Below, piece after piece: positions 15,304-24,679 of a stretch of 64,000 nucleotides of DNA. Position 1 is the first letter of the stretch, and each line of letters starts with the position of its first letter. The translations under genes were made by a program, and so were the position numbers. The notes under the pieces are model-generated. The model ran no database searches. It was not told the origin of the DNA and saw nothing but the letters and a program-made list of their open reading frames with translations. Source of the DNA: Promethearchaeota archaeon (GTDB lineage: Archaea; Asgardarchaeota; Lokiarchaeia; Sigyniarchaeales; SOKP01); contig JALGVJ010000005.1 of NCBI GenBank assembly GCA_029838195.1, forward strand, positions 32,001 to 96,000. Direction: 5' to 3'.

Positions 15304-15437
15304 GAATTCTATAATGATTGCTAATTTAATAAATATACTATATTTTCAAAAAATAAGTCTACTCATTATATCCATTTCTCAATTTCCTAAAGAGAATACA
15401 ATAAAGAAATGAGGAAATTTATAATAATAAGAATAAA

Positions 15438-15528
15438 TGCGCCCACCGGGATTTGAACCCGGGTCGACGGCTTTCTTCGGAGATGAAATCCGTGGAAGGC
15501 CGCAATCCTACCACTAGACTATGAGCGC
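15438..15528 (-). tRNA. tRNA-Gly(TCC) with a canonical 20-nt intron at 37/38
   Basis: GCGCTCA...GCGGC CT TCC A[intron 15492-15473]A GCCGT...GGGTTCAAATCCCGG TGGGCGC A; BHB central helix CTTC/GAAG. Confidence 0.95.
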
Positions 15529-15672
15529 AAGTGTTATTTCGGGTTTTTCTTGAAATGTGTGAAGGAATTTATTTGCAATTGACCGATACAAATCATTTTA
15601 AGAATGATCGAATAATCATTATTATGATCTATAACACGACATTTAATTTTAATTTTGGGAATTTGAGAAGTC

Positions 15673-21924: not shown

Positions 21925-23143
21925 TTAAAAAAAGTAAATAGAAATGCTATTTGGAACAAATAAATCTTCCTCCTTATTCCTACAAGCAATAAAAGATATG
22001 CCCATTCGAATGAGAACAGTGAGTAGCCTGTTGCTTAAAATTCCATTGATTATTAACACTTTTAAATTCGAATGATCTTCTATTTTTTCATAGAGTTCAG
22101 ACACGGGTAATTCAAAGAGTTTCTCTCCACTACCATTAAAACCTACTGCTAATCCATCTTGAATATTTCGAATGGTGTTAATTATCTCTTCTTCATTTTT
22201 TAGTTTAACTTTCGACAATTTTTTATGCAAGATGTCGTCCTTGCTTTTGCCTTTTTTTAGCTCTCGATGTTCTAATTCTAGACTTTTCACGGGTTTTTTA
22301 TTCTGTAGTGCCTTGATCATCTGTTTACGGGTGAGTTCTTCGACTTCGTATCCTTCAGGAGCCCTTGCTACATAATCTAACTTGGCAACTTGTTGAAGCT
22401 CGTTCAGAATGATGGTACCTCCTCTATCACCGTCCACGAATGCGATAACATTTTTTTTCTTTCTTGTTAAATCTGCGACTGATTTGGGAATATTAGTTCC
22501 TTGAACCGCAATAGTATTTTTCAGGCCGATTCTTAAAAGATTTAATACATCAGCACGGCCTTCCACGATTATTAATTCATCGCTCTTATCTACGTCGGGA
22601 CCTGCGGGTAATTTATCAGGACCCCATTCCGTGATTTCACCTAAATTAATATCTTTTTCTATTTTTTCTTCAATCTCACTAGTTTCTAAGGATTTTTCAT
22701 CCCATTCTTTCAGTAATTCTGCCGCTCTCTTAATGATTTTCTTGCGCTTGCTCTCTCTAACATCTTTAATTTCTTTTAATTTTATCTCTGCTTCACAAGG
22801 TCCAACGCGAGTTACCGTCTCAACGGTGGCGGCGAGAAGGGCAGTTTCTTTTCTCGTGAGGCTACTCGGAATGCGTATTTCTCCTTCCGTCATGCCTTCT
22901 TTTGTACCAAGCTCGACTTCTATTCGTCCAATTCGACCGGATTTTTGAAGATCCCGTAAGTCTAGATCCAAAAGAAGGCCTTCCGTTTAGCCGATAAGCC
23001 GAAAAGGCTTCTTATAATTATCTCTGGCCGAATATAGCCCCAACGATATCGCTCTTCTCCACAACCCCTTTTATTGAAAAATTAACGATAATAATATATT
23101 TAGTAGTAAAATCAATTTGATTATTGTTAGTAATCTTGATCAC
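21925..23143 (-). CDS. dnaG: Archaeal DnaG (TOPRIM; exosome-associated), two exons: 23143-23024 and 22986-21925
   Basis: Exon 1 (...TTKYII...GVVEKSDIVGAIFGQ) joins exon 2 (TEGLLLDLDLRDLQKSGRIGRI...VEGRADV...DGDRGG) to give a 393-aa spliced product. Confidence 0.93.
22987..23023 (-). other. 37-nt BHB-type mRNA intron in dnaG
   Basis: AGATAATTATAAGAAGCCTTTTCGGCTTATCGGCTAA. Central helix GGCC/GGCT, 3-nt bulges AG^A and AA^A, inner helix GATAA/TTATC. Contains an in-frame TAA and shifts the frame. Confidence 0.85.
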
Positions 23144-23647
23144 TTCCTTAAGAATAATTTTTTCATAAAATTGAAAAAATAATAAAAAATATTGACAAAA
23201 TCTTTTTATTTATAATCTTTATTTGAATCTAATCTATTTTTTTAGTAATTTGGATCATATAATAATTATGATTCAAATCAATATCTGAGAATTTATTAAA
23301 GGTTAAATCTTTTATCTTCATTATTTATAAGAAGAGCCGTTTAATTTCTTTTTAAAAAAATAAAGTGATGAATAATTGATGTAAAATTATTTTACCCTCT
23401 TATACTACCTTTCATGAATTTCCCGAGGGTGAGTCCTTTAAATTAAGTTCTACCTTTATGAGATCATGAGGAGTTTTTAAAAAATTTTCCAAATTGTTGG
23501 AAAATTGGAAATTGTTTTATTTAATTTCAAATTTTTTTAAAGTATTAAAGATGGGATGAATGTTAAATCCCACATTAAAAATTAGAAATTAATTAAAAAT
23601 ATTTTAGTTGGAATTAATAAAAACGACTTAAAAATAAGGAGAATCAA

Positions 23648-24679
23648 ATGCTTAAGAAAATTATTGTACTAGGAGGGAAAGGTGGGGTGGGAAAATCAAC
23701 GATAAGTGCAGCTACGGCTGTTGTAATCTCTGATATGCTTCCTAATGAGAAAATCTTGTTGATTTCATTTGATATGGCACATAATTTAACAGATCTATTC
23801 GAAATTCCAATTGGAAATAAATTAACGAGAGTCATGGATAATTTATGGGTCATTGAACCCGATCCTGATGTCTATGCGGAAGAATATACTCGAGATTTTG
23901 CCGAAAAAATGCGAAATTTATTGAAAAAAATGCCTATCGTGGGATTAATTCCCCAAATCAAGACTTTCATAGACACCACATTTACCGCAGATTCCATTCC
24001 TTTAGCACTCAAAAATGCCATGTTCTTTCAAAAAATTTTAGATGCGGAAGATATTAATAAGCAAGGTTTAGATTTTGATTATATTGTGGCAGACTTTCCT
24101 CCAACAGGAAACATGATCGCCCTCTTTGATATACCCGAGGATACGGTAAAAGTAGTTCTGAAATATTCTTTAAATTTTTATAATTCAATTCGAAGTACCG
24201 TGAAAAATGTATCAAGATTCTTTAAAAAGGTGACAAGGCCATTTGAAACTCAAGAACAAAAAGAAGAGTTAGGAGATGAGATCTTGAAGATGTTAAATGA
24301 ATTAGAAGAGAGAGGTGAAAAAATATCTAAGTTAATTCATGATATCGGTTCATTAAGACTCGTCACAATTGCTGAAAAAGCCAGTTTTGAGGAGATCAAG
24401 CGGGCTCGAGAATTAACAAGTAAATATATAACGTTAGATGCCGTTCACATTAATATGATAACTCCAAAATCCGAAACATGCGAATTTTGTCAAAAAGTAA
24501 GAACCATCCAAATGAAATACATATCAGAAATCCAACAGGAATTTCATGATACCATGATATGGCAATCTCATAAACTCCAAGAAGAACCCGTAGGAATAGA
24601 GGGGTTAAGAAAATTCGCACGAGAAGTTTACAAGGATTTACGAGTAGAGAAGATTTTAAATCCAAATCAAGAAAGATGA
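23648..24679 (+). CDS. ArsA/GET3-family ATPase
   Basis: GGKGGVGKST, DMAHNL, DFPPTG and a C-terminal CEFC. Confidence 0.88.
   Translation: MLKKIIVLGGKGGVGKSTISAATAVVISDMLPNEKILLISFDMAHNLTDLFEIPIGNKLTRVMDNLWVIEPDPDVYAEEYTRDFAEKMRNLLKKMPIVGLIPQIKTFIDTTFTADSIPLALKNAMFFQKILDAEDINKQGLDFDYIVADFPPTGNMIALFDIPEDTVKVVLKYSLNFYNSIRSTVKNVSRFFKKVTRPFETQEQKEELGDEILKMLNELEERGEKISKLIHDIGSLRLVTIAEKASFEEIKRARELTSKYITLDAVHINMITPKSETCEFCQKVRTIQMKYISEIQQEFHDTMIWQSHKLQEEPVGIEGLRKFAREVYKDLRVEKILNPNQER

What the first reader, a model, noticed from the sequence alone, without database searches (positions are those of the whole stretch)
22987..23023. BHB-type (tRNA-like) intron in the protein-coding gene dnaG
Seen in sequence: the ORF-track DnaG lacks its N-terminus, and the missing 40 codons lie upstream in another frame. 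They are separated by a 37-nt insert carrying an in-frame TAA, in the middle of the conserved archaeal DnaG motif GAIFGQ|TEGLL. The insert folds with its exon flank into a bulge-helix-bulge: a 4-bp central helix GGCC/GGCU, 3-nt bulges AG^A and AA^A, and an inner helix GAUAA/UUAUC (alternatively AAGCC-UUUUC-GGCUU). The outer helix is imperfect (relaxed motif). Cutting after the second nt of each bulge, the same rule that fits all four tRNA introns here, gives ...GGC CAG ACG GAA GGC... exactly. Established: archaeal EndA endonuclease plus RtcB splice BHB introns, and the best-known mRNA case is cbf5 in some Crenarchaeota. Inference: this Asgard lineage splices pre-mRNA with its tRNA-splicing machinery. 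Such genes would be systematically mis-annotated as truncated, and DnaG (an exosome subunit) could be regulated by splicing.
Basis: partly seen in the sequence, partly recalled or inferred. Interest (0 to 1): 0.95.

Follow-up and report, generated by a model that had tools for sequence, protein, structure and literature searches.

The report
tRNA-type intron in Asgard dnaG
The only dnaG gene of this Asgard (Promethearchaeota) archaeon is interrupted by a 37-base insert shaped like an archaeal tRNA intron. About half of the related genomes carry such an insert at exactly the same codon boundary, so the mRNA very probably has to be cut and rejoined by the tRNA-splicing enzymes. The papers I could search show this inside a coding sequence only for cbf5.

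Summary
dnaG (minus strand) is split between GAIFGQ and TEGLL by 37 nt (23023..22987) that carry stops in both exon frames.

Twenty distinct relatives have 29-40-nt inserts at the identical site, and 42 have none. The 4-bp central helix pairs exon GGNC with intron bases in 80 of 80 cells. The Gly wobble base and its intron partner co-vary (CG, AU, GC, UG, GU). The 5' bulge and inner helix are canonical; the 3' side is relaxed.

Two exon wobble bases that form an outer helix are pyrimidines in 90-95% of intron-bearing genes and about 40% of intron-less ones. Both exons stay intact in all 20 genes, and exon 2 has no conserved start codon.

The genome has one dnaG, one RtcB and two EndA paralogues. 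The alpha subunit keeps the loop that gives broad substrate specificity. Independent DNA contigs contain the insert.

A second gene, rpl11, has a 28-nt intron of the same build.

No RNA data were available, so splicing is inferred, not seen. The regulation idea is untested, and only one tRNA intron (not four) is in the window.

This scan has already noted dnaG introns in many other Asgard genomes. I found no paper describing it.

The parts
23024..23143 (-). dnaG exon 1 (40 codons if the GTG at 23143 is the start; ends ...SDIVGAIFGQ)
   Evidence: It aligns 76-84% with the first 38-40 residues of intact DnaG proteins.
22987..23023 (-). 37-nt BHB-type intron (AGAUAA...CGGCUAA)
   Evidence: It is single-copy in the genome. 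Independent DNA contigs contain it with 0 differences.
21925..22986 (-). dnaG exon 2 (353 codons plus stop; Toprim domain)
23026..23029 (-). Central helix, 5' strand (exon GGCC: Gly codon plus the first base of the Gln codon)
   Evidence: Paired in 80 of 80 cells. The third pair shows five pair types.
22989..22992 (-). Central helix, 3' strand (intron GGCU)
23023..23025 (-). 5' bulge A-G|A; the cut after its second base gives the exon-1 end ...CAG
   Evidence: Sequence. The rule is as published for cbf5 (PMC2738675).
22986..22988 (-). 3' bulge A-A|A (with C 22985 unpaired, so 4 nt in this genome); the cut after its second base gives the exon-2 start ACG
23018..23022 (-). Inner helix h', 5' strand GAUAA (GAU is conserved in relatives)
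   Evidence: GAU/AUC is paired in 93% of cells.
22993..22997 (-). Inner helix h', 3' strand UUAUC. It overlaps the alternative hairpin AAGCC (23010-23006) / GGCUU (23000-22996).
23030..23038 (-). Exon-1 side of the outer helix: GCU (23038-23036, Ala codon) and UUC (23032-23030, Phe codon)
   Evidence: RNAalifold. The Ala wobble base is a pyrimidine in 95% of intron-bearing genes and 38% of intron-less ones.
22978..22984 (-). Exon-2 side of the outer helix: GGA (22984-22982) and GGC (22980-22978, Gly codon of TEG)
   Evidence: The Gly wobble base is a pyrimidine in 90% of intron-bearing genes and 40% of intron-less ones.
23138..23147 (-). Shine-Dalgarno-like GGAAGUGAUC that overlaps the GTG start
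   Evidence: Sequence. The conserved 'EVIKIT' reading upstream in relatives comes from this motif. That it acts as a ribosome-binding site is inference.

Best explanation
The 37 nt at 23023..22987 are a bulge-helix-bulge (BHB) intron in the dnaG pre-mRNA.

Proposed structure:
- Exon GGCC pairs with intron GGCU to form the 4-bp central helix.
- On the 5' side sits a canonical 3-nt bulge (AG|A), closed by the intron helix GAU.../...AUC and a small hairpin.
- On the 3' side the AA|A bulge is closed only by a weak, interrupted exon-exon helix (UUC/GGA, then GCU/GGC). This makes the motif relaxed.

Proposed steps:
1. The two-subunit splicing endonuclease EndA cuts after the second base of each bulge. 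[quoted passage not shown]
2. RtcB joins ...GGC CAG to ACG GAA....
3. The spliced mRNA encodes a 393-aa DnaG with the intact motif GAIFGQTEGLL.
4. Unspliced mRNA would end translation at the UAA two codons into the intron.

Shown here: the anatomy, conservation, covariation, gene content and selection on the exons. Inferred: the cleavage and the ligation themselves.
For: 1. Same site, variable insert. 20 distinct relatives carry 29-40-nt inserts exactly between GQ and TE; 42 have none. In the window's family, 33 of 65 full-length matches have a frame break directly before TEGLL (a proxy).

2. Central helix. It is paired in 80 of 80 cells. Pair 12-51 is CG 9, AU 6, GC 2, UG 2, GU 1. The inner helix is 93% paired. 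0 of 500 shuffles reach the observed score, and slid registers drop to 22-50% paired. RNAalifold finds the helix on its own.

3. Outer helix. Exon wobble bases in it are pyrimidines in 95% and 90% of intron-bearing genes against 38% and 40% of intron-less ones. Neighbouring wobble sites show no such contrast.

4. Local fold. The MFE of the 61-nt region (-10.4 kcal/mol) is BHB-like.

5. Selection. Both exons are intact and conserved in all 20 genes. Every intron has a stop within its first 3 codons, and insert lengths fall in all three classes modulo 3.

6. Junction. It is exact against intact DnaGs.

7. Copy number. The genome has one dnaG, at 96.6% completeness.

8. Machinery. There are two EndA paralogues. 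The alpha subunit is closest to the A. pernix alpha chain (3p1z_B), aligns without a gap across the specificity loop with its K-P-R, and keeps the catalytic Tyr, His and Lys. There is one RtcB. PMC5829648 and PMC3241643 show that this type cleaves relaxed motifs.

9. Tree. The intron is clustered but needs at least 7 changes. An intron-less gene (L032) is nested among intron-bearing ones, which looks like a precise loss.

10. Not an artefact. DNA contigs of two other runs contain the insert without any difference.

11. Second case. rpl11 in the same genome has a 28-nt insert of the same build, and most relatives lack it precisely.
Against: No RNA evidence for this organism.

The 3' splice site is not in a canonical 3-nt bulge. 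4-5 bases are unpaired there. The adjacent exon helix has only two invariant pairs, which are fixed by the codons, and a third pair forms in 25% of sequences.

An almost isoenergetic alternative pairs G10 with the C of the Thr codon, which would leave a 3-bp central helix.

The wobble-base contrast is not corrected for shared ancestry.

No Asgard EndA has been tested on any mRNA substrate, as far as I could find.
Confidence: 0.85

Rival explanations
1. Split gene: exon 1 gives a 41-aa peptide, exon 2 is translated from its own start, and the two pieces assemble without splicing.
For: Gene callers do call a 348-aa ORF from a TTG at 22971. Split genes exist in archaea (general knowledge).
Against: Exon 2 has no conserved start. 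The first ATG, GTG or TTG lies anywhere from codon 5 to codon 171, and the same-genus relative has none before codon 171.

The break falls inside the most conserved motif.

This reading does not explain the covarying helix between exon and insert, or the wobble constraint.
Confidence: 0.03
2. Translational recoding: ribosomes bypass or frameshift over the insert, as in phage T4 gene 60.
For: A stop lies right after the break and a hairpin follows it. This superficially resembles a bypass site.
Against: Insert lengths of 29, 30, 31, 32, 35, 37, 38 and 40 nt put exon 2 in all three relative frames, and both frames are closed by stops.

There is no matching take-off and landing codon: CAR before the insert, UAA before ACN after it.

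The conserved pairing is of the BHB kind and includes exon bases.
Confidence: 0.03
3. Broken gene or assembly artefact.
For: A 37-nt frameshifting insert with stops is what a pseudogene looks like. The MAG has 7.9% contamination.
Against: Contigs of two other runs contain the insert with 0 differences.

It is the only dnaG in the genome.

The same site is interrupted in 20 distinct relatives, and both exons are intact in all of them.
Confidence: 0.01
4. The insert is removed from the RNA, but by something other than EndA and RtcB: another nuclease and ligase pair, or an unknown route.
For: Cleavage was not observed, and the 3' site is non-canonical.
Against: The conserved features are exactly those EndA reads: a 4-bp helix, a 3-nt bulge and a cut after the second bulge base.

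A tRNA intron in the same window follows the same rule.

The insert is far too small for a group I or group II intron.
Confidence: 0.06

Closest known systems
BHB intron in the cbf5 pre-mRNA of Crenarchaeota (Desulfurococcales, Sulfolobales; Watanabe 2002, Yoshinari 2006, Yokobori 2009 = PMC2738675)
   Same: It is a short intron inside a coding sequence with a relaxed BHB motif. The cuts fall between the second and third bulge bases. The host has a two-subunit EndA. Presence is patchy among relatives, which implies gain and loss. The gene is mis-called by annotation pipelines.
   Different: The gene differs (dnaG, at GAIFGQ|TEGLL) and so does the lineage (Asgard). In this genome the cbf5 TruB_N domain lies in one 343-aa open frame, with no frame break found. 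Splicing of cbf5 was shown by cDNA and in vitro cleavage; here it is inferred.
Archaeal tRNA introns (hBHBh' and relaxed HBh' motifs), for example the 20-nt intron of the tRNA at 15437-15529 in this window
   Same: Same central 4-bp helix, same 3-nt bulges, same cutting rule and the same AA|A 3' bulge. The same enzymes are presumed.
   Different: The context is an mRNA. The outer helix is built from codons and is weak and interrupted, not a tRNA stem.
EndA-dependent processing of an mRNA 5' UTR in Haloferax volcanii (PMC7714728, listed)
   Same: The splicing endonuclease acts on an mRNA.
   Different: I read only its abstract here.
HAC1/XBP1 unconventional mRNA splicing in eukaryotes (Ire1 plus tRNA ligase or RtcB)
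   Same: A protein endonuclease and a tRNA-type ligase remove a short frame-changing intron from an mRNA (general knowledge).
   Different: The endonuclease is Ire1, not EndA/TSEN. It recognises stem-loops, not a BHB motif, and it is stress-regulated.

Membership tests
Archaeal BHB (EndA-type) intron | 4-bp central helix between the two cleavage sites | tested here: met
   GGCC/GGCU. Paired in 80 of 80 cells across 20 sequences, with compensatory changes. Found independently by RNAalifold.
Archaeal BHB (EndA-type) intron | 3-nt bulge at the 5' site, closed by a flanking helix | tested here: met
   The bulge is A-R|N in all 20 sequences. The inner helix GAU/AUC is 93% paired and is extended by a hairpin.
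Archaeal BHB (EndA-type) intron | 3-nt bulge at the 3' site, closed by a flanking helix of at least 2 bp (strict hBHBh') | tested here: inconclusive
   4-5 bases are unpaired. The U-A and U-G pairs never vary because the codons fix them. A third pair forms in 25% of sequences. A distal 3-bp GCY/GGY helix is supported by the wobble constraint. This is a relaxed motif, not a strict one.
Archaeal BHB (EndA-type) intron | Cutting after the second base of each bulge gives the functional mature sequence | tested here: met
   It gives GGC CAG ACG GAA, which restores GAIFGQTEGLL. This matches intact homologues exactly and is the junction seen in intron-less relatives.
Archaeal BHB (EndA-type) intron | Host encodes a splicing endonuclease able to cut relaxed motifs, and an RtcB ligase | tested here: met
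   Two EndA paralogues. The alpha subunit has the catalytic Tyr, His and Lys and the specificity loop with K-P-R. One RtcB at 553 bits.
Archaeal BHB (EndA-type) intron | The intron is absent from the mature RNA (cDNA, RNA-seq or a circular intron) | not testable with these tools
   No RNA run holds the stretch. Two junction patterns gave no hit in JGI contigs. No full-length near-identical protein is in the database.
cbf5-type pre-mRNA intron | The intron lies in cbf5, in the codon of the catalytic Asp | tested here: not met
   The gene is dnaG. The cbf5 TruB_N domain of this genome lies in one 343-aa open frame. So this works like the cbf5 intron but is not a member of that intron family.

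The most novel reading that the evidence does not exclude
In this Asgard family, tRNA-type splicing is a routine and obligatory step in expressing several essential protein genes. dnaG and rpl11 were tested here, and earlier notes of this scan name more in the same genome. The dnaG intron is old: it is at least family-wide and also occurs in a second family of the order. It has shaped synonymous sites of its host exons. Protein-enzyme mRNA splicing would then be an ordinary layer of gene expression in close prokaryotic relatives of eukaryotes, and possibly a point of control for DnaG.
Probability: 0.55. Interest if true: 0.8.

Novelty: new member of a known kind. Interest (0 to 1): 0.62.

Why it matters
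Published work confirms endonuclease-type splicing inside an archaeal coding sequence only for cbf5 of Crenarchaeota. The 2009 cbf5 paper states that no other gene had been confirmed.

A conserved, co-evolving intron in the single-copy dnaG of Asgard archaea adds a second gene and a new phylum. Together with rpl11 in the same genome, it suggests that mRNA splicing by the tRNA machinery is not a curiosity there.

In practice, gene callers truncate these genes. All near-identical database entries are 316-364 aa instead of about 393. That distorts completeness estimates, phylogenies and protein families for Asgard genomes.

It also gives a concrete substrate of about 61 nt, with natural compensatory variants, for testing the substrate range of Asgard EndA.

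Tried and rejected
RNA evidence:
- No RNA holder is listed for the stretch.
- The four runs laid are DNA contigs without joints.
- The exact spliced-junction pattern of this genome gave no match in JGI metagenome contigs. Neither did that of the 32-nt-intron relative.
- Protein searches with exon 2 of this genome and of the 32-nt relative returned only truncated near-identical proteins.

Genome-wide de novo scan for other mRNA introns (BHB pairs plus ORF joining):
- The general motif gave about 5100 hits, the same as for mis-registered decoys.
- A dnaG-like motif gave 281 hits against 145-322 for decoys.
- With bulge filters it gave 20 against 9-18.
- Structure alone is not discriminating, because adjacent genes swamp it. 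No count of introns per genome is claimed.

Other checks:
- The intron as a repeated mobile element: it is single-copy, and the one weak 19-nt match lies in a transposase reading frame.
- A second tRNA in the window: the only other T-loop-like match is in coding sequence.
- The first whole-region MFE folds (76 and 101 nt) did not give the BHB structure. The 61-nt local fold does.

Full report
**Observation.** dnaG lies on the minus strand. An ORF of 40 codons (GTG 23143 to CAG 23024) ends in ...SDIVGAIFGQ. After 37 nt (23023..22987), a second frame starts with ACG 22986 (TEGLLLDLDLRDLQ...) and runs 353 codons to the stop at 21925. It contains a Toprim domain. The insert has TAA as its second codon in the exon-1 frame and TAA directly before exon 2 in the exon-2 frame. 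Exon 1 aligns over its whole length (76-84% identity) with the N-termini of intact DnaG proteins of relatives. It ends exactly where exon 2 begins in them. The joined product would be 393 aa, the usual length of these homologues.

**Organism and copy number.** The closest public records are MAGs named Promethearchaeota, the Asgard kingdom Promethearchaeati. The DNA occurs in hydrothermal-vent metagenomes. The genome is 4.5 Mb in 94 contigs, 96.6% complete with 7.9% contamination, and has a single dnaG. Contigs from two other runs span the insert without any difference. It is therefore not an assembly artefact.

**Relatives.** I examined dnaG loci from two searches: the genome search among relatives and a scan of genome contigs. 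They gave 62 distinct junction sequences. Of these, 20 carry an insert at exactly the GQ|TE boundary, and 42 read GAIFGQTEGLL without interruption. The inserts are 29, 30, 31, 32, 35, 37, 38 or 40 nt long. In a wider sample of the phylum, 33 of 65 full-length matches in the window's family have an open frame that stops directly before TEGLL. This proxy agrees with the 15 such loci I read. Other families mostly do not show it. One genome of a second family of the same order (L030) does carry the insert.

On a DnaG tree the intron is strongly clustered, needing 7 changes against about 18 for shuffled labels. The window's clade of 10 is all intron-bearing, and so is the basal clade of the family. 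An intron-less gene (L032) sits inside an intron-bearing group, which looks like a precise loss.

**Structure.** In all 20 sequences, the four exon bases GGNC pair with the four intron bases that precede the last two bases of the intron. GGNC is the Gly codon plus the first base of the Gln codon. All 80 of 80 cells are paired. The pair that involves the Gly wobble base is CG in 9, AU in 6, GC in 2, UG in 2 and GU in 1.

The next three bases, A-R|N, form the 5' bulge. The intron then forms GAU.../...AUC (93% paired) and a small hairpin. None of 500 shuffles reaches the observed pairing or covariation. Sliding the partner by 1-3 columns drops pairing from 90% to 22-50%. RNAalifold, given only the alignment, returns the central helix and also a 3-bp exon-exon helix, GCY of the Ala codon with GGY of the Gly codon of TEG.

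That outer helix gets independent support. The two wobble bases in it are pyrimidines in 95% and 90% of intron-bearing genes, against 38% and 40% of intron-less ones (Fisher p = 2e-5 and 3e-4). The wobble bases of Ile, Thr and Glu nearby show no such contrast. This test is not corrected for shared ancestry.

The 3' site is not canonical. Between the central helix and the next pairs (U-G and U-A, fixed by the Phe and Glu codons), 4-5 bases are unpaired. The local 61-nt minimum-energy fold (-10.4 kcal/mol) is BHB-like. The exact proposed structure is within about 1 kcal/mol of it.

**Selection.** In all 20 intron-bearing genes, exon 1 (at least 38 codons, conserved) and exon 2 (353-391 codons) are intact. 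Every intron has a stop within its first three codons. Exon 2 has no conserved start. The first ATG, GTG or TTG lies between codon 5 and codon 171, and the same-genus relative has none before codon 171. This argues against a two-piece protein. The varying frame relation and the stops in both frames argue against frameshifting or bypass.

**Machinery.** The genome has one RtcB (553 bits) and three matches to the endonuclease domain.
- One is a 202-aa protein closest to the catalytic alpha chain of the Aeropyrum pernix heterotetramer (3p1z_B, E = 6e-36). It aligns without a gap over the Crenarchaea-specific loop, keeps K-P-R there (K44 and R46 in A. pernix), and keeps the catalytic Tyr, His and Lys.
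- The second is a 199-aa paralogue that lacks the His, as expected for a structural subunit.
- The third is a fragment nearly identical to part of the second.

Published work shows that this loop confers cleavage of relaxed motifs (PMC3241643). It also reports that Asgard archaea have the (alpha-beta)2 enzyme with this loop (PMC5829648).

**tRNA introns.** ARAGORN finds 36 tRNA genes in the genome, 23 of them with an intron. The one tRNA in the window (15437-15529, minus) reads as Gly(UCC) to me. It has a 20-nt canonical intron, CUUC CA|C GGA...UCC GAAG AA|A, cut by the same rule.

**A second mRNA intron in the same genome.** The only rpl11 gene (contig C47) is interrupted after ...VKALVTGG by 28 nt with the same build: AGGG AG|A GAU...AUC CUCU AA|U. 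Excision gives GG-S-ASGGPPIGP. Most relatives read VKALVTGG[S/A/K]ASGGPPIGP without interruption. Two others have an insert at the same point.

**What is known.** In the papers I could search, splicing of a coding sequence by this route is documented only for cbf5 of Crenarchaeota. The authors state that no other gene had been confirmed (PMC2738675). A 2026 preprint on Asgard tRNA introns does not mention mRNAs. No paper combining dnaG, intron and splicing endonuclease describes this. Subscription journals are not covered.

Within this scan the dnaG intron has been noted many times in other Asgard genomes, including the same 37-nt type. One follow-up reports an RNA-derived contig that lacks the orthologous 32-nt intron. 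I could not re-test that, because the run search was already spent. My substitutes found nothing.

**Verdict.** The reading as an EndA/RtcB-spliced mRNA intron is well supported by comparative evidence (confidence about 0.85) but not by RNA data. It works like the cbf5 intron and is a new member of that kind, in a new gene and phylum. The idea that splicing regulates DnaG remains speculation.

Noticed in passing
G000 contig C47; L078:1652-1679 (minus strand): The only rpl11 gene is interrupted by a 28-nt BHB-type insert with the same build as the dnaG intron: AGGG AG|A GAU..AUC CUCU AA|U. Most relatives read VKALVTGG[S/A/K]ASGGPPIGP without interruption. G013 and G017 have an insert at the same point.
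   Followed up: yes
L088, L091, L097/L110 (rpl11 of G017, G006, G014): The rpl11 matches in these relatives contain further stops or breaks at other positions, for example after GPAV in L091. This suggests more intron sites in the same gene.
   Followed up: no
window 15437-15529 (-), intron 15473-15492: This tRNA has a 20-nt canonical BHB intron after position 37. By my reading the anticodon is UCC (Gly), but ARAGORN types it '???' or SeC.
   Followed up: partly
window 23132-23147 (-): A Shine-Dalgarno-like GGAAGUGAUC overlaps the GTG at 23143. The same motif is conserved upstream of dnaG in relatives, where it reads as 'EVIKIT'. The true start could therefore be the GTG or the ATT at 23134.
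   Followed up: partly
L075:1492-1812 (G000 contig C53): A 106-aa EndA fragment is nearly identical to the middle of the beta-like subunit on contig C8. It may be a duplicate, a strain variant or contamination in this MAG (7.9% contamination).
   Followed up: no
A1 alignment (20 dnaG introns): Every intron has an in-frame stop within its first three codons. In 18 of 20, a stop sits directly before exon 2 in the exon-2 frame. This is partly a by-product of the GAU-AA and U-AA motifs, but it may also end translation of unspliced mRNA early.
   Followed up: partly
G000 contig C69 (L079, L080): The cbf5 TruB_N domain lies in one 343-aa open frame, so no frame break was found in the gene that carries the classic crenarchaeal mRNA intron.
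   Followed up: partly
window 23648-24679 (+): A Get3/ArsA-like ATPase gene lies next to dnaG and is transcribed divergently from it.
   Followed up: no
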